Below the pieces are notes generated by a model. The model was given only the letters and a program-made list of their open reading frames with translations, searched no databases and had not been told where the DNA came from. A stretch of 57,552 nucleotides of DNA, taken from Poseidonia sp. (GTDB lineage: Archaea > Thermoplasmatota > Poseidoniia > Poseidoniales > Poseidoniaceae). Position numbers and translations under genes: made by a program. Within the stretch, counting starts at the first letter, position 1. Each line of letters begins with the position of its first letter. Location: assembly GCF_029250625.1 (NCBI RefSeq), contig NZ_JAQXEX010000031.1. One strand, 5' to 3'. This document shows positions 50,421-57,552 of this stretch, one piece after another.

Positions 50421-52259
50421 ATGGTGGTACAGATGTCAGAAGATGAGTTCGCAGAATTTGAAAATGTCGTGTGGCCCAAGGCAGCCCCTGAGGAAACCAC
50501 GGTAGAACACGTCGTTGTTTCAGACACGTCAGCAAAAAGTAACGTCATGCCTGTCCTTATTGTGGCTGGGCTCTTATTGGTAACCATCACTTTAGGCGGC
50601 ATCTACAGCCTTCTCAGTTCTGTTGTGGTTGATCAAGACGATGTTGACGAAGATGGAGTTTCCAATCTCATGGATTCGTGTTACGACGGTGAACGGGACT
50701 GGACGTCCTCGGTTGCGACCGACCATGACGGAGACGGATGCCGTGATGCTTCGGAGGATGAAGACGATGATAACGACGGGCTTCCCGATGTGAGTGATGA
50801 TTGCGCAACAGGCGACATGGATTGGCTGCGTAACTTTGAGACTGACCGTGATGTGGATGGCTGTCGGGATGCTGGTGAAGACCTTGACGATGACAACGAT
50901 GGCGTTACCGATTTGACCGACCTGTACCCATTGGACCCAACCGAGTGGGCGGATGCCGATGGTGATGGGACTGGAGATAATGCAGACCCGTTCCCTGACG
51001 ACGCCATGGAATGGCAGGATTCCGATGGGGATGGATACGGTGACAATTCAGACCAGTTTCCGACCAATCCTCTTGAGTGGGTTGACTTTGACCTGGACGG
51101 TCAAGGTGACAACGGTGATGATGATGATGATAATGACGGCGTTCTTGACCTCTATGACATGAACGATCATCGTGATTCTGCAATCTATATTCGCCTTGAA
51201 TCCTTTACTCTGCTTGACAATGTTGACCTCTTCGACAGTGTAGGTGAGATCTATTTCTGCACGAGCGTGAACAACATCTCCATTGGGTGCATGCCTTCGT
51301 ACATGTCAGACTACATTGAAGTTGAAACTGGAACCGAAGTACTCCTGAATGAAAATTATCACATCGACCTCGAAGAAAATCTTAGATACCATTTCATTGA
51401 AATTACAGCCCATGATTCAGATGCATTTTCAGACGATGAATTGGACCTTAATCCTCTTCCAGACGTAGAAGCCATTGAATTTACATTTGACAGCTTAACC
51501 ATGGTTGAAAATGTGAGTCTCGTAGGGAACGGCTCGGCTGATGGGGAAAAGGACGATGGAGTGTTGCAATTCTCTATTCAGCCCTTTGACAATCTCGTGA
51601 GTAATGTCCGTGACTACTATTGGGACTTTGAGGGCGGCTATTACAGCCTTTCATGGGTCCTCAACTACAGCACCTATGCATCGTACAGAACGATGAATCA
51701 TGCTATTGATTGGTCAAACGCAGTGACTTATGATGACATCATCCCTCAATATGCAGCCTTCTCAACTCCTAACGAACCTGCTATTGGTCAACTGGCTGTA
51801 GAGTTGCAATCCATGGCTCAAGAAAATGGATATACTTCAAACAACGATGTTGCTCGATTCATACATGCCTTCGTTGGTGATATCCCCTATCTGTACGATT
51901 TGGACAGTTCTCAAGAGCAAACAGAATACCCAAAGTACCCGATCGAAATGTTATGGGAAGAGGGTGGGGATTGTGAAGATGCAAGTGCTTTGTACATCAG
52001 TTTGGTAGAACATCTCGGCTATGATGCGGCCCTCATGCTCGGAGATACCAAATCAACTGCGGATGAAGACTGGGGTGGCCATGCTTGGGTTGTTATTGCC
52101 ATGGAGAACTTTTCTGGAGATGGATACGCTGGTGAAGGTCCAAAATCCAGTATCATGTATTACTTTGTTGAAACAACAGGCCATTACGACGGGTCATCCG
52201 ACATCGGAATCAATCCTTGGTACGATATGCAGAATGAAGTATTCTACGACGTTGAGTAG
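50421..52259 (+). CDS. Membrane-anchored protein with TSP3-like repeats and a C-terminal transglutaminase-like cysteine protease domain
   Basis: N-terminal TM helix, DxDGDG repeats, YPKYPIEML..GGDCED...GHAW...FVETT. Confidence 0.8.
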   Translation: MVVQMSEDEFAEFENVVWPKAAPEETTVEHVVVSDTSAKSNVMPVLIVAGLLLVTITLGGIYSLLSSVVVDQDDVDEDGVSNLMDSCYDGERDWTSSVATDHDGDGCRDASEDEDDDNDGLPDVSDDCATGDMDWLRNFETDRDVDGCRDAGEDLDDDNDGVTDLTDLYPLDPTEWADADGDGTGDNADPFPDDAMEWQDSDGDGYGDNSDQFPTNPLEWVDFDLDGQGDNGDDDDDNDGVLDLYDMNDHRDSAIYIRLESFTLLDNVDLFDSVGEIYFCTSVNNISIGCMPSYMSDYIEVETGTEVLLNENYHIDLEENLRYHFIEITAHDSDAFSDDELDLNPLPDVEAIEFTFDSLTMVENVSLVGNGSADGEKDDGVLQFSIQPFDNLVSNVRDYYWDFEGGYYSLSWVLNYSTYASYRTMNHAIDWSNAVTYDDIIPQYAAFSTPNEPAIGQLAVELQSMAQENGYTSNNDVARFIHAFVGDIPYLYDLDSSQEQTEYPKYPIEMLWEEGGDCEDASALYISLVEHLGYDAALMLGDTKSTADEDWGGHAWVVIAMENFSGDGYAGEGPKSSIMYYFVETTGHYDGSSDIGINPWYDMQNEVFYDVE

Positions 52260-53488: not shown

Positions 53489-54364
53489 TCAATCAAAACG
53501 CTGAAGTTGCATCAATTCTTCTGTTGAAAGTGTTTCACCAGAGAGCAACTTTGCCATCAAATCTTGAGTTTCATTGCTTGCAGTCGGCCGTTGACCTTGT
53601 CCGGCACTTGCTCCTCGCATGGCTCGCAAGATGTCTTGAATTGAGTGGAGGCATCGAAGGGAGACAATGTACAAACTGTGTTCCTTGTCGGCTTCCTTCT
53701 TTGAAGTTCGCAATCGTCGGTGAGCGGCTTCGGCCTTCTCACGTTGTCGGTCAACTTCAGAATTCCATTCAATCATCAAATCGTGAGCACTCTGAGCCGC
53801 TTCAGCCGCTTCTTTGACGGCGTTGTGAGCATTGTCCTGCTTGGCCATGGCCTCTCGCAGTGCTTCGTTGCCTTCTGTTTCTCCGCTTGCGGTCTGAGAA
53901 TCCTTGAGTTTTCGGCGCTTTGCACTGAGTTCCTTCATTTTCTTGAAGTACTTGGTTTCGTTTTTACCTTGGTGCTTACCTTGTTCAAATTCTCGCTCAA
54001 GTCGTTCCATGGTTCGAGTCAGAGACTGCACGGTATCAGGGCGGATCGGTCGTCCACGCTTGTCCAATTGTGGGGGTGCTTCAGGTTGTGTGCCCCTGAT
54101 TGTATCTTTTGCATCCCGAACCATTTGATTTGCTTCTTCTCGCTCCTTCTTCTTGTCACGGACTCGCTCATTCATGTTGTCTCTGAGTTCACGTTGTTCT
54201 CGAACCTGCACAATCAGTTCACGGACTTCGTTGTTGAGTTCGTTTCGGGTTGAGGTGAATTCCTTGGTTTTCTCGTTCCAATCGTCTCGAATTTCGCGGT
54301 GATGCGTGGCCTTTTCGTCAACCATTTTTCGTCGCTCGTTCAGAAGATCTTTGAGTTCTGCCAT
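53489..54364 (-). CDS. Archaeal coiled-coil protein (COG1340-like)
   Basis: Long heptad-rich helix, RNELNNEVRE, C-terminal KLLSGETLSTEELMQLQ; GGTGA RBS. Confidence 0.8.
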   Translation of the reverse strand: MAELKDLLNERRKMVDEKATHHREIRDDWNEKTKEFTSTRNELNNEVRELIVQVREQRELRDNMNERVRDKKKEREEANQMVRDAKDTIRGTQPEAPPQLDKRGRPIRPDTVQSLTRTMERLEREFEQGKHQGKNETKYFKKMKELSAKRRKLKDSQTASGETEGNEALREAMAKQDNAHNAVKEAAEAAQSAHDLMIEWNSEVDRQREKAEAAHRRLRTSKKEADKEHSLYIVSLRCLHSIQDILRAMRGASAGQGQRPTASNETQDLMAKLLSGETLSTEELMQLQRFD

Positions 54365-54470: not shown

Positions 54471-54827
54471 CTAGGCCAGATTATGCAGTGATTCGTGGCA
54501 TCTTTCGGCAGTTTGGCGAACCTCTCCAAGATTGGTTGAGGGTCCGCAGTGCACGGCGAGGTGGAGGCGATCGCCACGGTAGAGAATCACCGTTCCATGC
54601 TCCATGATGAAGGTGAGACGGTTGGATTTTTCAGAGATGTCAAGGGCTGAAATCCAACGTGGCATTTGCCCGTCTTCATTGGTCGGGTCATCCTCGGAAC
54701 GGTAGATGACGAAACCATCGTTTTCAAACAGAGTGACGCTTTTTACTCCGGCTGTTTCCACTAGCGGCGTCATTGTTCGCTGGAGCATGAAGAAGCCATC
54801 AATTGCGACAGCGAATAAGACTTTCAC
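54471..54827 (-). CDS. Roadblock/LC7-like protein
   Basis: GVKSVTLFENDGFVI...EHGTVILY...LAVHC...NLGEVR. The start may be ATG 54788. Confidence 0.6.
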   Translation of the reverse strand: MKVLFAVAIDGFFMLQRTMTPLVETAGVKSVTLFENDGFVIYRSEDDPTNEDGQMPRWISALDISEKSNRLTFIMEHGTVILYRGDRLHLAVHCGPSTNLGEVRQTAERCHESLHNLA

Positions 54828-55325
54828 TCATTCAACGTGACGTAGAAGAGGCCCTCGCATCATGTATCCCAAACCGGATTGATAGTATCCTTCGAGTTTT
54901 TTCTGAACTGTCATGCCTCGTCGTTGATAAAATCGTTGAGCCCTCTTATTGCTGGCCTTAACTTCCAATTGGACACGTTTGTATCCTGCCTTGAGGGAAG
55001 CATCTACGAATCGATTCCAAGCCTCGCTCCCAAGTCCATTGCCTTGAAACTTCGAATGGATTACAAATGCTGCAACCCGAACGATGTCATCCATGAAGGG
55101 TGTGGCCCACAACAGTCCGATAATCGGACTCTCACCGCTTAGAGTTTCATCTTTCAGGATTAAATTTCCTTCCCAGTTTGGAATGGGTAAATGGCGCACA
55201 GATGCATCAGAATATTGCTCTCCTGTCTCGTTAAGAAACAGTGTGAGGACTTGGCGACATGCAACTGAAGTCATGTGTTGAGGTTCGATACCTTGGGTCC
55301 AAACGGGTGCCGGCACGAGTCTCAT
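54828..55325 (-). CDS. GNAT-family N-acetyltransferase (RimI-like)
   Basis: FQGNGLGS, LEVKASNKRAQRFYQRRG, GYY; ATGA overlap with the nucleotidyltransferase stop. Confidence 0.9.
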   Translation of the reverse strand: MRLVPAPVWTQGIEPQHMTSVACRQVLTLFLNETGEQYSDASVRHLPIPNWEGNLILKDETLSGESPIIGLLWATPFMDDIVRVAAFVIHSKFQGNGLGSEAWNRFVDASLKAGYKRVQLEVKASNKRAQRFYQRRGMTVQKKLEGYYQSGLGYMMRGPLLRHVE

Positions 55326-57343
55326 TCCCTCTTTGATTCGTTTTTGCCTTGGCCTCTTTTACCACGGCGAACTTGATAATTTGAGGATTTGTTCTTATTC
55401 CGTTTCCCTTTACGTTGTTTTCTTGGGTCGTCTTGACCAGCATTCATGTTGAGAACTCCCCCATGCTGCAGTAGCGTGCTCAAATCATCCATTGAAAGCG
55501 CTTCACCAGAATTCAGCTTCTTCTTAACTTCGCTTGGTTTTGGTCCACGAGGTTGACGTTTTCCGCGTCGGTCGTTCCGTCGGGTTTTTTTATCTCCGTC
55601 TTTGATACGAATCCACGACTCAAGCCGACCTTTTTCTCGCCGAAGTGACTTTGATTTTTTCCGATTAGAACGGATGTTCCGCTTGATTTTTTTCTCTGAT
55701 TTATTGAGATGCTTGATGTTGCCATGAAGGGGCTTCTTAATGTAATGAATTTCTCGATTAAGACGGTCCACTTCCTTTGCTATTGGGTGTATTTCTTGAA
55801 GTTCAAAGAAGAGTGATGCAAGCTCCTGTTCCCGCTCGAGCAGCGGAATGTTCATGACGTCCAATTGTTCTGTAATCCGGGCAAAAGTTTGTCGAAGAGT
55901 TTCGGAAACCTTAGGGGATGAAATGACGATATTGCTCACCAGCTCATCTCGTTTCACGATCAATTCATCCAGTTGGGATTTTGACTCGCTGATTTCGTTT
56001 GACACCGATTCTTCATCGTCGATGGGCCCTTCAGGGGGGGTTGTTCGTTTTCCAAGTGCAAATTGTATGGCTTGGCCTATGGACCGGCGTTGTGAACTCA
56101 ACTTTTTTCCATCTTCTTCAGACCGGTTGAGTTGGTCAACGGTTTCCTGATGGAGGGCATGAATCTTGTCCATTGGAACATCTCGTAAATCCTCAAAGAG
56201 GTCAAAAGGTTGAATCTCAGTACTCTTTTCTTTCTTACTTAGTTCGGTCCAGGTTGCACCATTGAGCATGCCGACCCAAGCCTTGAGAAATTCCTCTCGA
56301 ATGGTGAGGTATCCCGCTGGTCTCAATACCCGACTCAGGTCGTGGTTTAATGAAAATGGGTCTTCAATCGGCATGCTGTGCTCCCCAAGCCTCCGATCGA
56401 GGTGGTCGGGCAATAGAGTCCATGCATCGGGTTCTCCTTCAGCCCAGCCCTTTTCATTTCGTGAAACAGTTCCACCGTTTCGTATTGATACGACATCGTG
56501 CTCGAAGGGCCAATCAAAAACAAACCTTCGGATGAATGAAACAAAGCACGTCGCATGGTCCATGTTTGGGGTCCAAGGTGATGCTGGTTCTGAGTGGAAG
56601 CCCACATCGTATGTGTCATCCAAATTGAGAACATTTGGCTTGGCGCCTTTTTGCAAATTGGGCAGGTTAATGTGCGGGTCTGACTGCATGCTTCCTATCG
56701 CGAGAAGGGTCCATGCGTACGATGAAAGCGTACCCATGAACGCTTGATTGATGGCTCTAGAAGACGCCCAATATTTTATCGAAAGGACGCCGTTGCGAAC
56801 CATTGGGTGGGTGTCTGCGTAGGCCCGTATCAATTCAGTATTGTACAATGCAAGTTCATTGTTGACCGAGATGTCGATGGGAAGTCCAGTTTCAGGGTCC
56901 TTGAATTTAATGATGGGCACTTTCGCTCGGCCAATCACTTCAATTTCAGTCATGTCCAAATCATTCAAGATGTTCCTCACTTTGTTCAGGATTTTTCGTG
57001 GTGATGGCGCATCAACGACCAAGCACAGGTCCAAGTCACCCACTCCCAATGAAGTGCGAGATTGTGTTGACCCGAAGGCGTGGAGTTGGCTTCCGTTCAG
57101 TTTCCTTTCGATGTTCCGTTTCAGATGTTGAAAGATACGGTCTCTGGCTTTTGTTTCTTGTTTGCTCATTCTTGATGTACTGATGGAGGTTTTGATCTCT
57201 TCAGATAAGCCTTTCAAGTATTCGGGAGAGATTGATTCGATGTCTCCCAATTCAAGCGTCCCAAGCAGATGTGAATGCAACAATGGCCACTGCTTCTGCT
57301 GTGCAGTGGAAAATCCAGTGTGGGGGCAAATCTCACGATTCAT
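55322..57343 (-). CDS. Cid1/TUT4/7-like non-canonical poly(A)/poly(U) polymerase fused to a COG1340-like coiled coil and basic tail
   Basis: FGS..S......DLDL, AKVPIIKF, IDISVNN, GTLSSYAWTLL, IEDPFSLNHDL. Start 57343 inferred from overlap with the upstream stop. Confidence 0.88.
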   Translation of the reverse strand: MNREICPHTGFSTAQQKQWPLLHSHLLGTLELGDIESISPEYLKGLSEEIKTSISTSRMSKQETKARDRIFQHLKRNIERKLNGSQLHAFGSTQSRTSLGVGDLDLCLVVDAPSPRKILNKVRNILNDLDMTEIEVIGRAKVPIIKFKDPETGLPIDISVNNELALYNTELIRAYADTHPMVRNGVLSIKYWASSRAINQAFMGTLSSYAWTLLAIGSMQSDPHINLPNLQKGAKPNVLNLDDTYDVGFHSEPASPWTPNMDHATCFVSFIRRFVFDWPFEHDVVSIRNGGTVSRNEKGWAEGEPDAWTLLPDHLDRRLGEHSMPIEDPFSLNHDLSRVLRPAGYLTIREEFLKAWVGMLNGATWTELSKKEKSTEIQPFDLFEDLRDVPMDKIHALHQETVDQLNRSEEDGKKLSSQRRSIGQAIQFALGKRTTPPEGPIDDEESVSNEISESKSQLDELIVKRDELVSNIVISSPKVSETLRQTFARITEQLDVMNIPLLEREQELASLFFELQEIHPIAKEVDRLNREIHYIKKPLHGNIKHLNKSEKKIKRNIRSNRKKSKSLRREKGRLESWIRIKDGDKKTRRNDRRGKRQPRGPKPSEVKKKLNSGEALSMDDLSTLLQHGGVLNMNAGQDDPRKQRKGKRNKNKSSNYQVRRGKRGQGKNESKRE

Positions 57344-57551
57344 CCTGAGAACCCCCGTTTGATTTTTGTTGCCGTGAGAGGGCATAGCTTGAGGCTCCAC
57401 CCTGCTTGACCCTGTGTGCGTCAACCAGCAAATGGTCGAATCCCTGTTCTAAAACGGACTGCCAGTACTCAATTGAACGTTGACAGTCATTCAACGCCAT
57501 GGTAAGTCGCTTGGTGCGCGAATCACTTCTTCTGCGGAACAGTTCATTCTC
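57333..57551 (-). CDS. 3' end of an upstream helical protein (truncated by the window edge; absent from the ORF track)
   Basis: Open frame ENELFRRRSDSRTKRLTMALNDCQRSIEYWQSVLEQGFDHLLVDAHRVKQGGASSYALSRQQKSNGGSQDES*, whose end overlaps ATG 57343. Confidence 0.6.
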   Translation of the reverse strand, partial: ENELFRRRSDSRTKRLTMALNDCQRSIEYWQSVLEQGFDHLLVDAHRVKQGGASSYALSRQQKSNGGSQDES

Positions 57552-57552
57552 A

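What the first reader, a model, noticed from the sequence alone, without database searches (positions are those of the whole stretch)
55322..57343. Eukaryote-type terminal uridylyltransferase (Cid1/TUT4/TUT7-like) in an archaeal genome
Seen: the N-terminal ~370 aa carry the full motif series FGS-x10-DLD (57021-57080), AKVPIIKF, a third Asp in IDISVNN (~56870), GTLSSY and IEDPFSLNHDL (56335-56375). Established: this series marks the eukaryotic Trf4/Cid1/GLD-2/TUT family, not archaeal CCA-adding enzymes or minimal nucleotidyltransferases. The His in the nucleotide-recognition loop (Cid1 H336; TUT4/7 IEDPFDLNHNL) selects UTP, whereas adenylating members lack it. Inference: this archaeon may 3'-uridylate RNA, a mark I know only from eukaryotes. 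The gene is translationally coupled on both sides and fused to an archaeal domain, which argues against contamination.
Basis: partly seen in the sequence, partly recalled or inferred. Interest (0 to 1): 0.92.

Follow-up and report, generated by a model that had tools for sequence, protein, structure and literature searches.

The report
Eukaryote-type RNA uridylyltransferase in marine archaea
An abundant family of ocean archaea carries a gene for an RNA-tailing enzyme otherwise typical of eukaryotes, fused to one of the archaea's own proteins, which suggests that these archaea add U tails to RNA, although this has not been tested.

Summary
Window 55325-57343 (-) encodes a 673-aa protein. Residues 1-378 form a Cid1/URT1/TUT4/7-type terminal nucleotidyltransferase: Pfam PF22600, PF03828 and PF19088 score above their cut-offs, and the best solved relative is Arabidopsis URT1 (E 1.7e-35). 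The Asp triad is intact and the loop histidine aligns with URT1's.

It is not contamination. The same locus recurs in many Poseidoniaceae genomes, and contigs from independent metagenomes bridge every junction.

New here: residues 379-673 (coiled coil plus a +30 basic tail) are homologous to a stand-alone 320-410-aa protein found across Poseidoniales. PAP_assoc was found in only one family of the phylum (42/57 versus 0/343 sampled genomes). The archaeal sequences form one clade, and their nearest named relatives are all eukaryotes. This favours one eukaryote-to-archaeon transfer, a fusion, and later losses.

Uridylation is inferred from the histidine (90/95 family members), not shown. I found no paper reporting this. 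Novelty: a new variant of a known kind. Interest 0.7.

The parts
55325..57343 (-). Whole coding sequence, 673 aa (stop at 55322-55324). A TTG at 57424 is a possible but less likely start.
   Evidence: Homologues of 673-733 aa start at the same Met.
56210..57343 (-). N-terminal Cid1/URT1/TUT-type nucleotidyltransferase unit, aa 1-378 (palm plus PAP-associated domains).
   Evidence: Pfam. PDB phmmer: URT1 covers query residues 61-355, E 1.7e-35.
56816..57208 (-). Palm domain, aa 46-176 (PF22600). It holds the FGS-x10-DLD motif and the third Asp.
   Evidence: F90, G91, S92, D103, D105 and D157 are invariant in the 17-member alignment A1.
57029..57037 (-). Catalytic D103-L-D105.
   Evidence: The D-D-D triad (with D157) is kept in 93 of 95 archaeal family sequences.
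56873..56875 (-). Third catalytic Asp, D157.
56342..56548 (-). PAP-associated domain, aa 266-334 (PF03828).
   Evidence: One search places the same match at G000:C31:56342-56551.
56336..56368 (-). Nucleotide-recognition loop IEDPFSLNHDL, with His334.
   Evidence: Aligned to URT1 IEDPFETSHDL. His is present in 90 of 95 family sequences.
55325..56209 (-). C-terminal archaeal module, aa 379-673. It begins with DLFEDLR, continues as predicted coiled coil, and matches no Pfam family.
   Evidence: It is homologous to stand-alone 320-410-aa ORFs in other Poseidoniales.
55325..55708 (-). Basic tail, aa 546-673: 34% K+R, net charge +30.
55469..55510 (-). Conserved SGEALSMDDLSTLL motif inside the tail (G613, L624, L625 invariant). 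A similar motif ends the neighbouring DUF7121 protein.
57333..57551 (-). 3' end of the upstream gene, cut by the contig end. It overlaps the start of the NTase gene by 11 nt. In a relative it is a 179-aa ORF with no Pfam family.
   Evidence: Syntenic in all loci checked.
54828..55325 (-). GNAT acetyltransferase gene. Its ATG overlaps the NTase stop (ATGA).
   Evidence: Syntenic.
53489..54364 (-). DUF7121 coiled-coil protein gene, a possible distant paralogue of the C-terminal module.
   Evidence: (E 5.8e-19).

Best explanation
The gene encodes an active, template-independent RNA 3'-terminal nucleotidyltransferase of the Cid1/URT1/TUT4/7 class.

Origin. An ancestor of the Poseidoniaceae (Marine Group IIa archaea) acquired the catalytic unit once from a eukaryote. 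It became fused to the N-terminus of a native protein found across Poseidoniales. That protein consists of a coiled coil and a very basic tail.

Mechanism. The palm domain (D103, D105, D157) would bind two metal ions and transfer an NMP to an RNA 3'-OH. His334 in the nucleotide-recognition loop would favour UTP, so the product would be short U tails. The coiled-coil and basic module would supply oligomerisation and RNA binding (or binding to a partner), and so decide which RNAs are tailed.

Shown here: family membership, intact and conserved catalytic residues, the fusion, phyletic restriction, and archaeal genomic context.

Inferred: the direction of transfer, RNA as the substrate, U preference, and the role of the C-terminal module.
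For: Family membership:
- Pfam PF22600, PF03828 and PF19088 score above their cut-offs, and do so in 17 of 17 family members scanned.
- All 38 PDB sequence hits are TUTases or non-canonical PAPs; URT1 is best at 1.7e-35, and the NRM His aligns.

Conservation in 95 archaeal-type sequences:
- The Asp triad is kept in 93 of 95.
- N168, K190, S208 and Y209 are each kept in 94 of 95.
- His334 is kept in 90 of 95.

Literature on the histidine (passages read): inserting it into Gld2 switches ATP to UTP (PMC4931116), and His336 to Ala/Asn turns Cid1 into a poly(A) polymerase (PMC7498324).

The fusion:
- The A1 profile matches 368 of 401 genomes of the order.
- In 5 of 5 family f2/f3 genomes examined, the match covers only profile positions 372-709, as 320-410-aa ORFs.
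- Same-genus genomes G006 and G012 carry the C-only gene at the same locus: upstream gene / X / GNAT / DUF7121 / PurP.

Phyletic restriction:
- PF03828 occurs in 43 of 401 genomes sampled from the phylum, all in family f1 (42/57 without G000). It occurs in 0 of 343 genomes from other families and 0 of 14 control genomes.
- A scan of 185,579 species' genomes with the eukaryote-type NRM pattern confirmed none.
- A scan with the archaeal patterns confirmed 146. The best 80 all carry Poseidoniales-type labels except 3, and those 3 keep Poseidoniaceae synteny.

Phylogeny and relatives:
- The 21 archaeal rows plus P0224 form one clade with SH-aLRT 100 among 113 rows.
- Of 20 nearest non-archaeal representatives looked up, 13 are eukaryotic, 7 have no organism and 0 are prokaryotic.

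Authenticity: contigs from independent metagenomes bridge the GNAT/tail junction, the module/NTase junction and the upstream/NTase junction.

Tail composition: net charge +30. One stand-alone homologue carries an RGG-rich N-terminus.
Against: - No activity, substrate or tail data exist.
- The histidine is not sufficient evidence of U choice. By the passages read, Cid1 adds both U and A in vitro, and CutA, with a near-identical pocket, prefers C.
- 5 of 95 family members have R, L or I instead of His.
- The NTase domain appears dispensable. It is missing from most species of the window's own genus and from genera g16 and g20. One fused member has a degenerate triad, E-G-N.
- The placement of the archaeal clade among eukaryotes has only unstarred support (83-89), and the tree is unrooted. 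It lacks GLD-2, Trf4, MTPAP and TUT1 as outgroups. The direction of transfer therefore rests on distribution alone.
- No structure model could be made.
- The C-terminal module matches no family, so its RNA-binding role is inferred from composition.
- RNA-library contigs on the gene are few and short, and may be DNA carry-over.
Confidence: 0.6

Rival explanations
1. The same enzyme class, but it adds A or mixed tails. It would be a non-canonical poly(A) polymerase like Trf4/GLD-2, or a C/U tagger like CutA, marking RNAs for the archaeal exosome or the RNase R-like enzyme.
For: - Cid1 adds both U and A in vitro, and CutA, with a near-identical pocket, prefers C (passages).
- 5 of 95 family members carry R, L or I at the His position. 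Passages in PMC4931116 link Arg/Lys or Leu at this position to adenylating or unknown-specificity groups.
- The genome has exosome RNase PH subunits and an RNase R-like RNB protein.
Against: - His334 is present in the window's protein and in 90 of 95 relatives.
- The best-scoring solved relatives are uridylyltransferases: URT1, TUT7, TUT4 and Cid1. GLD2 (3e-21) and Trf4 (1.4e-15) score much lower.
Confidence: 0.22
2. The NTase domain does not tail RNA. It could make a nucleotide signal (OAS/cGAS/CD-NTase-like), nucleotidylate a protein or small molecule, or serve as a non-catalytic RNA-binding scaffold for the coiled-coil module.
For: - The fold class is shared with OAS/cGAS (recalled, not tested here).
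- There is a weak NCBIfam hit to CBASS_cyclase_b: E 0.0055, 16.3 bits.
- The domain has been lost repeatedly, and one member has a degenerate triad.
- Fixed neighbours (GNAT, coiled-coil proteins) do not point to RNA decay.
Against: - The CBASS hit is far below its 200-bit cut-off.
- There are 0 PADLOC families for this protein and three neighbours.
- All 38 PDB hits are RNA-tailing enzymes.
- Residues that align to conserved columns of the tailing enzymes are kept in 94 of 95 sequences. That these residues bind the triphosphate and the base in Cid1 is recalled, not tested here.
Confidence: 0.07
3. Artefact: eukaryotic DNA mis-assembled or mis-binned into an archaeal MAG.
For: - The gene lies within about 200-2200 bases of the end of a MAG contig.
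- Its nearest non-archaeal relatives are eukaryotic.
- Three MAG records with other labels carry it.
Against: - The same gene order (upstream gene / fusion / GNAT / DUF7121 / PurP) is found in loci from five other genomes, including a 2.06-Mb single-contig genome.
- It is also found in two records labelled as single-cell isolates (L098, L118).
- The protein is fused in frame to an archaeal module.
- It is only 27-36% identical to the eukaryotic sequences in alignment A2.
- Contigs from other studies bridge all junctions with no loose ends or joints.
- GC is even along the contig.
- The three oddly labelled contigs have Poseidoniaceae synteny.
Confidence: 0.01

Closest known systems
Arabidopsis URT1 (UTP:RNA uridylyltransferase 1; PDB 7xs4, 6l3f)
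   Same: Best solved relative: E 1.7e-35 over query residues 61-355. It shares the FGS/DxD palm, the third Asp, GTLSSYA, and an IEDPF..HDL loop with His followed by Asp. Plant URT1 sequences (Cocos, Selaginella, Ginkgo) are among the top non-archaeal hits.
   Different: In the URT1-type hits, the catalytic unit sits at the C-terminal end of a longer protein. Here it is N-terminal and is followed by an archaeal coiled-coil/basic module. The archaeal sequences form their own clade. The host is an archaeon.
S. pombe Cid1 poly(U) polymerase
   Same: E 5e-28 over query residues 58-361. It has the same two-domain core, and its loop His (His336) governs UTP choice (passages).
   Different: The solved Cid1 chains are 340-405 residues; that Cid1 lacks accessory domains is recalled, not tested here. 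The archaeal protein adds a conserved ~45-aa N-terminal extension (with a near-invariant Cys6) and a 295-aa C-terminal module. The loop reads HD here; Cid1 has His336-Asn337 (passages).
Human TUT4/TUT7 (TENT3A/B)
   Same: The catalytic module matches at 2e-32 (TUT7) and 4e-29 (TUT4).
   Different: TUT4/7 carry a second, N-terminal NTase-like module, which also matches the query, and zinc-knuckle domains (PF00098 is listed for animal hits). Neither feature is present here.
Trf4/PAPD5 and GLD-2 non-canonical poly(A) polymerases
   Same: Same superfamily and domain pair. Hits at 1.4e-15 (Trf4, 3nyb) and 3e-21 (GLD2). JGI labels some archaeal members 'DNA polymerase sigma', which I recall as the old name for Trf4.
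   Different: They score much lower than the uridylyltransferases. By PMC4931116, Gld2 lacks the loop histidine that is present here.
[quoted passage not shown]
   Same: They share the Pol-beta-type NTase fold family. The general PF01909 model hits at 23.7 bits.
   Different: No CCA-enzyme-specific family or structure appears in the Pfam, NCBIfam or PDB results. The PAP-associated domain is not part of those enzymes (this last point is recalled).
Stand-alone Poseidoniales coiled-coil/basic protein, and the neighbouring DUF7121 family
   Same: The C-terminal 295 aa align end to end with 320-410-aa ORFs in families f1, f2 and f3. Shared motifs are DLFxDLR, RDxIN, FFELQ, RRExGRL and SGxxLSxxxL.
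   Different: Those proteins have no NTase domain. The relation to DUF7121 itself is unproven: 0 of 17 members hit that model, hhalign gives probability 75%, and there is a language-model lead.

Membership tests
Cid1/URT1/TUT4/7-type terminal nucleotidyltransferases (non-canonical PAP/TUTase, TENT) | Pol-beta-type palm with hG[GS]-x9-13-DxD and a third carboxylate | tested here: met
   FGS-x10-DLD (aa 90-105) and D157. PF22600 scores 100 bits against a cut-off of 27. The triad is kept in 93 of 95 family sequences.
Cid1/URT1/TUT4/7-type terminal nucleotidyltransferases (non-canonical PAP/TUTase, TENT) | PAP-associated (PAP/OAS1 substrate-binding) domain after the palm | tested here: met
   PF03828 scores 30.5 bits against a cut-off of 22.6. 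It is present in 17 of 17 members of A1, best E 2.8e-14.
Cid1/URT1/TUT4/7-type terminal nucleotidyltransferases (non-canonical PAP/TUTase, TENT) | Significant sequence similarity to experimentally characterised members over the whole catalytic unit | tested here: met
   URT1 1.7e-35 (query 61-355), TUT7 2e-32, Cid1 5e-28 (query 58-361). All 38 hits belong to this superfamily.
Cid1/URT1/TUT4/7-type terminal nucleotidyltransferases (non-canonical PAP/TUTase, TENT) | Same three-dimensional fold (palm plus fingers) | not testable with these tools
Cid1/URT1/TUT4/7-type terminal nucleotidyltransferases (non-canonical PAP/TUTase, TENT) | Template-independent NMP addition to RNA 3' ends | not testable with these tools
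   Needs a biochemical assay.
UTP-selective subgroup (TUTases) | Histidine in the nucleotide-recognition loop at the Cid1 His336 position | tested here: met
   IEDPFSLNHDL aligns with URT1 IEDPFETSHDL. His is present in 90 of 95 sequences; R in 3, L in 1, I in 1. The role of the His comes from passages of PMC4931116 and PMC7498324.
UTP-selective subgroup (TUTases) | Measured preference for UTP | not testable with these tools
Archaeal class I CCA-adding enzymes | CCA-enzyme-specific domains, or similarity to solved CCA enzymes | tested here: not met
   Only the general PF01909 model hits. No CCA-adding enzyme appears among the 38 PDB hits, and no NCBIfam CCA family appears at E<=0.1.
CD-NTase / CBASS cyclases and other defence NTases | Match to CD-NTase models above the cut-off, and a defence-type operon | tested here: not met
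   CBASS_cyclase_b scores 16.3 bits against a cut-off of 200. There are 0 PADLOC families for the protein and three neighbours.
DUF7121 (PF23435) archaeal coiled-coil proteins (C-terminal module only) | Match to the family model | tested here: inconclusive
   - 0 of 17 A1 members and 0 of 6 stand-alone homologues hit PF23435.
- hhalign against 5 neighbour proteins gives probability 75%, E 2.6e-5, 12% identity. Coiled coils inflate such scores.
- Atlas lead: a hit set in which 21% of members carry DUF7121.
- A shared SGExLSxxxL motif, E 0.027.

The most novel reading that the evidence does not exclude
Poseidoniaceae, among the most abundant planktonic archaea (abstract of PMC6461757), would run a eukaryote-like RNA 3'-uridylation system, the first in a prokaryote. 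A TUTase captured from a marine protist was wired, by gene fusion, into a native archaeal coiled-coil RNA-binding protein. U tails would mark transcripts for decay or processing, possibly by the RNase R-like RNB exonuclease. That exonuclease is likewise almost confined to this family within the order (50/59 versus 2/60 genomes).
Probability: 0.3. Interest if true: 0.85.

Novelty: new variant of a known kind. Interest (0 to 1): 0.7.

Why it matters
RNA 3' uridylation by Cid1/TUT-type enzymes is treated in the literature I could search as a eukaryotic process (review PMC4442281). In eukaryotes it is also seen on their viruses' RNAs (PMC4858684, listing and abstract only).

If the archaeal enzyme is active, three things follow:
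- It would extend this mark to a prokaryote.
- It would be a clear case of eukaryote-to-archaeon gene transfer fixed across a globally abundant lineage.
- It would supply natural controls: sister species and a sister family that keep only the C-terminal module. These make the function testable in existing metatranscriptomes.

The fusion also points to the unknown function of a protein family found across Poseidoniales. A compact prokaryotic TUTase may also be useful as an RNA-tailing tool.

Tried and rejected

The Atlas did not hold the window's own sequence, so I used the stored 94%-identical homologue P0006, as the tool suggested. That result is a lead only.

Viral origin. A scan of viral contigs with A1 matched 24 pattern stretches, none of them a relative.

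Defence-system reading. Rejected.

C-terminal module as DUF7121. Not established.

Dis3L2-like partner. The RNB protein is closer to bacterial RNase R (1.1e-50) than to Dis3L2 (9e-32). Its species-level distribution does not track the NTase: genus g1 has RNB in 14/14 genomes but PAP_assoc in 1/14, and g13 has RNB in 2/9 but PAP_assoc in 9/9. A dedicated TUTase-nuclease pair is therefore not supported.

Single-protein search. The search of relatives with the N-terminal 378 aa found 2 of 41 genomes. It understated the family's spread because that draw was mostly from the window's own genus. The profile and family searches correct this.

Expression. Two RNA-library runs gave 6 and 2 short contigs on the stretch. 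The tool warns that DNA can be present in such libraries, so I do not count this as shown transcription. Parts without RNA cover mean nothing.

Tree limits. From 245 stored proteins, 9 were dropped for covering fewer than 230 profile positions and 123 as more than 65% identical to a kept row, leaving 113. Only the quick IQ-TREE search was run, and no AU test was done.

Literature. The following searches found no report of a Cid1/TUT-type enzyme or of uridylation in archaea:
- 0 papers
- 14 listed, none on this by title or abstract
- 0 papers each
- 2 papers
- 31 held, 12 listed
- 7 papers

Passages of PMC6461757 hold none of the words nucleotidyl, polymerase or uridyl. Subscription-journal papers were not searched.


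Full report
WHAT IS THERE. The window is a whole contig (C31, 57,552 bases) of a 1.93-Mb assembly in 105 contigs, 93% complete and 1.4% contaminated. On the minus strand an ORF runs 57424..55322. The ATG at 57343 gives a 673-aa protein, P0001, and homologues start at that Met.

The stop overlaps the ATG of a GNAT acetyltransferase gene (ATGA). The start lies 11 nt inside the upstream gene. Further downstream on the same strand lie a 118-aa ORF, a DUF7121 coiled-coil protein, and PurP (DUF1246/DUF1297).

FAMILY. Pfam places residues 46-176 in PF22600 (100 bits, cut-off 27) and residues 266-334 in PF03828 PAP_assoc (30.5 bits, cut-off 22.6). PF19088 TUTase and the general PF01909 model also score above their cut-offs.

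Against PDB sequences, all 38 hits at E<=1e-3 are terminal uridylyltransferases or non-canonical poly(A) polymerases. They are led by Arabidopsis URT1 (1.7e-35, query 61-355), TUT7 (2e-32), TUT4 and Cid1 (5e-28). GLD2 (3e-21) and Trf4 (1.4e-15) score lower. No CCA-adding enzyme and no cGAS-type protein appears.

The printed URT1 alignment puts the query's loop IEDPFSLNHDL on URT1's IEDPFETSHDL. NCBIfam gives only a 16-bit CBASS-cyclase hit against a 200-bit cut-off, and PADLOC gives nothing.

IS IT REALLY ARCHAEAL? Yes.
- Proteins 92-99% identical over residues 1-380 occur in many assemblies. Some are named Candidatus Poseidonia alphae, and one lies on a 1.6-Mb contig.
- The gene order (upstream gene / this gene / GNAT / DUF7121 / PurP) is kept in loci from five other genomes, including a 2.06-Mb single-contig genome.
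- The same order is kept in two records labelled as single-cell isolates (L098, L118).
- Logan contigs of two DNA runs from different studies bridge every junction. X5 has one 2,432-nt contig covering 54432-56860, which spans GNAT, the tail and the module/NTase junction, and another from 56837 past the end of the stretch. X2 has contigs 54704-55634, 55699-56403 and 57039-57552. There were no joints and no loose ends.
- Ten DNA runs hold at least half of the sampled words, and the 20 runs that hold any part of the stretch come from 14 studies.
- GC content is even along the contig.

THE SECOND HALF IS A NATIVE ARCHAEAL PROTEIN. Residues 379-673 match no Pfam family but are conserved across the family. 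The shared motifs are DLFxDLR, RDxIN, LTxExD, FFELQ, RRExGRL, SGxxLSxxDLxxLL and RGxRG. The last 128 residues are 34% Lys+Arg, with net charge +30.

A profile of 17 family members (A1) matched 368 of 401 genomes sampled from the order, but in two different ways:
- In most genera of family f1 (Poseidoniaceae by the labels), the match is full length.
- In families f2 and f3, in 5 of 5 genomes examined, it covers only profile positions 372-709, as a 320-410-aa ORF that begins at the DLFxDLR motif.

The printed rows for five species of the window's own genus (G284, G325, G006, G009, G012) show the same C-only pattern. In G006 and G012 the C-only gene sits at exactly the syntenic position.

None of six stand-alone homologues reaches a Pfam cut-off. 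One carries an RGG-rich N-terminus. A link to the neighbouring DUF7121 family is possible but unproven. The evidence is a shared C-terminal motif at E 0.027, hhalign probability 75% at 12% identity, an Atlas lead, and 0 of 17 members hitting the model.

DISTRIBUTION OF THE NTase PART. PF03828 was found in 43 of 401 genomes sampled across the phylum, all of them in family f1:
- 42/57 in f1 without G000. By genus: g12 20/21, g13 9/9, g14 8/8, g15 3/3, g17 1/1, g1 1/14, g16 0/1.
- 0/37 in f3.
- 0 of 343 outside f1.
- 0 of 14 control genomes.

In the own genus, one search shows matches starting at profile position 1 only for G000, G043, G010, G199, G232, G313, G339 and G169 (the last on short contigs).

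Across 185,579 species' genomes, a scan with the eukaryote-type loop pattern confirmed nothing. A scan with the archaeal patterns confirmed 146 loci. The best 80 carry Poseidonia, Poseidoniaceae, Poseidoniales, Euryarchaeota, Methanobacteriota or Thermoplasmatota labels, apart from two bacterial labels and one Thalassarchaeaceae label. Those three contigs have the Poseidoniaceae gene order, so I read them as mis-binned. Viral contigs gave no relative.

RELATIVES AND TREE. A full HMMER pass over 1.84 billion cluster representatives gave 6,357 hits at E<=1e-3. About 13 archaeal-type representatives score 189-824 bits, and the next hits start near 150 bits.

Of the 20 non-archaeal representatives I looked up, 13 are eukaryotic: Balamuthia, Cocos URT1, Basidiobolus, Pavlovales, Ginkgo, Phlyctochytrium, Phalansterium, Pharyngomonas, Rozella, Fabomonas, two MMETSP transcripts and one EukProt entry. 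Seven have no organism, and none is prokaryotic. One of the seven, P0224, has the archaeal architecture.

In a quick IQ-TREE of 113 catalytic domains (the rows dropped are given under Tried and rejected), the 21 archaeal rows plus P0224 form one clade with SH-aLRT 100. The nearest rows are protist sequences (Pharyngomonas, Pavlovales, MMETSP), with only unstarred support of 83-89. The tree has no outgroup.

A tree of the C-terminal module, rooted on f2/f3, gives an f1 clade (99). Within it, C-only proteins of g16/g20 sit beside a fused g22 protein (96), and the C-only proteins of g1 form their own clade. At least two changes of state are forced.

The simplest history is one acquisition and fusion at the base of Poseidoniaceae, followed by at least two losses of the NTase part. 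The direction (eukaryote to archaeon) is an inference. It rests on the family's breadth in eukaryotes and its restriction to one archaeal family.

IS IT ACTIVE, AND WHAT DOES IT ADD? In 95 archaeal-type sequences:
- The D-D-D triad is intact in 93. The exceptions are P0106 (T-D-D) and P0224 (E-G-N).
- N168, K190, S208, Y209 and D328 are each kept in 94.
- R196 and D335 are kept in all 95.
- The loop His is kept in 90; it is Arg in 3, Leu in 1 and Ile in 1.

This pattern indicates selection for catalysis.

The link between the His and UTP comes from passages I read. Inserting a His at the Cid1 His336 position switches Gld2 from ATP to UTP (PMC4931116). Changing His336 to Ala or Asn turns Cid1 into a poly(A) polymerase (PMC7498324). 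The same papers caution that Cid1 adds both U and A in vitro, and that CutA, with an almost identical pocket, prefers C.

I therefore rate 'RNA 3' tailing enzyme' as very likely and 'U-specific' as roughly even odds or somewhat better. That the basic coiled-coil module brings the enzyme to its RNA or partner is an inference from composition and from the fusion itself.

CONTEXT. The genome also encodes three RNase PH-domain proteins, two of them adjacent and exosome-like. It also encodes a 782-aa RNB protein closest to bacterial RNase R. Within the order, the RNB gene is almost confined to f1 (50/59, versus 2/60 in f3). It does not track the NTase species by species, so a dedicated pair is not supported.

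Two RNA-library runs have short contigs on the gene: 6 in X18 and 2 in X19. This is only weak evidence of expression.

NOVELTY. Sources annotate these proteins only as 'nucleotidyltransferase domain-containing protein', 'DNA polymerase sigma' or hypothetical. Seven full-text searches, together with passages of the Poseidoniales genomics paper PMC6461757 and of two uridylation reviews, gave no report of a Cid1/TUT-type enzyme or of uridylation in archaea. Supplements and subscription journals were not searchable.

The enzyme class is well known. What is new is its presence in a prokaryote, its fixation across an abundant marine archaeal family, and its fusion to a native module. I file it as a new variant of a known kind, with interest 0.7.

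Noticed in passing
G000:C66, locus L032 1069-3414 (-): A 782-aa RNB-domain exoribonuclease, closest to bacterial RNase R (5xgu, 1.1e-50; Dis3L2 9e-32). Within the order the RNB domain is almost confined to the same family as the NTase (f1 50/59, f3 2/60). It does not co-vary with the NTase at species level.
   Followed up: partly
P0224 (693 aa, on an unnamed 60.9-kb metagenome contig): A fused family member with an intact C-terminal module (E 7e-104) whose catalytic triad reads E-G-N instead of D-D-D. This looks like an inactivated NTase domain and fits the repeated loss of the domain.
   Followed up: partly
L021 1495-2724 (-): The stand-alone homologue of the C-terminal module in one family-f3 genome carries an N-terminal region of about 80 aa rich in RGG/GGR repeats. 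That composition is typical of RNA-binding proteins (this last point is recalled).
   Followed up: no
window 53489-54364 (-) and L023 519-1508 (-): The DUF7121 coiled-coil neighbour ends with a motif (LLSGETLSTEELMQL) like the one in the tail of the NTase fusion. In one f3 genome the two genes abut and overlap. They may be distant paralogues or share a partner.
   Followed up: partly
window 54471-54827 (-): A 118-aa ORF between the GNAT and DUF7121 genes, with only a sub-threshold Roadblock/LC7 hit (E 0.012, 15.8 bits against a cut-off of 23). By tblastn it was found only in the closest relative's locus (L018), not in L003, L016, L017 or L019.
   Followed up: partly
L094, L105, L083: Two MAG records labelled as bacteria (Salipiger, Rhodobiaceae) and one labelled Thalassarchaeaceae carry the fusion gene with the Poseidoniaceae gene order. 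These contigs are probably mis-binned.
   Followed up: yes
window 55600-55700 region; A1 columns 566-599: The fused proteins of the window's genus (P0001, P0006, P0018, P0020) lack a segment of about 30-35 aa in the C-terminal module that the other genera have.
   Followed up: no
window 50421-52259 (+): A 612-aa protein with an N-terminal membrane-like segment, many Asp-rich DxDxDG-type repeats, and a C-terminal part containing a GGDCEDxS motif (a transglutaminase-like core, by recall). Seen in the ORF list only.
   Followed up: no
window 57208-57343 (-), aa 1-45: A conserved N-terminal extension ahead of the palm domain (Cys6 nearly invariant, TG[FL]S..QQ.RWP.LH). It has no counterpart in the aligned parts of the eukaryotic enzymes.
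   Followed up: no
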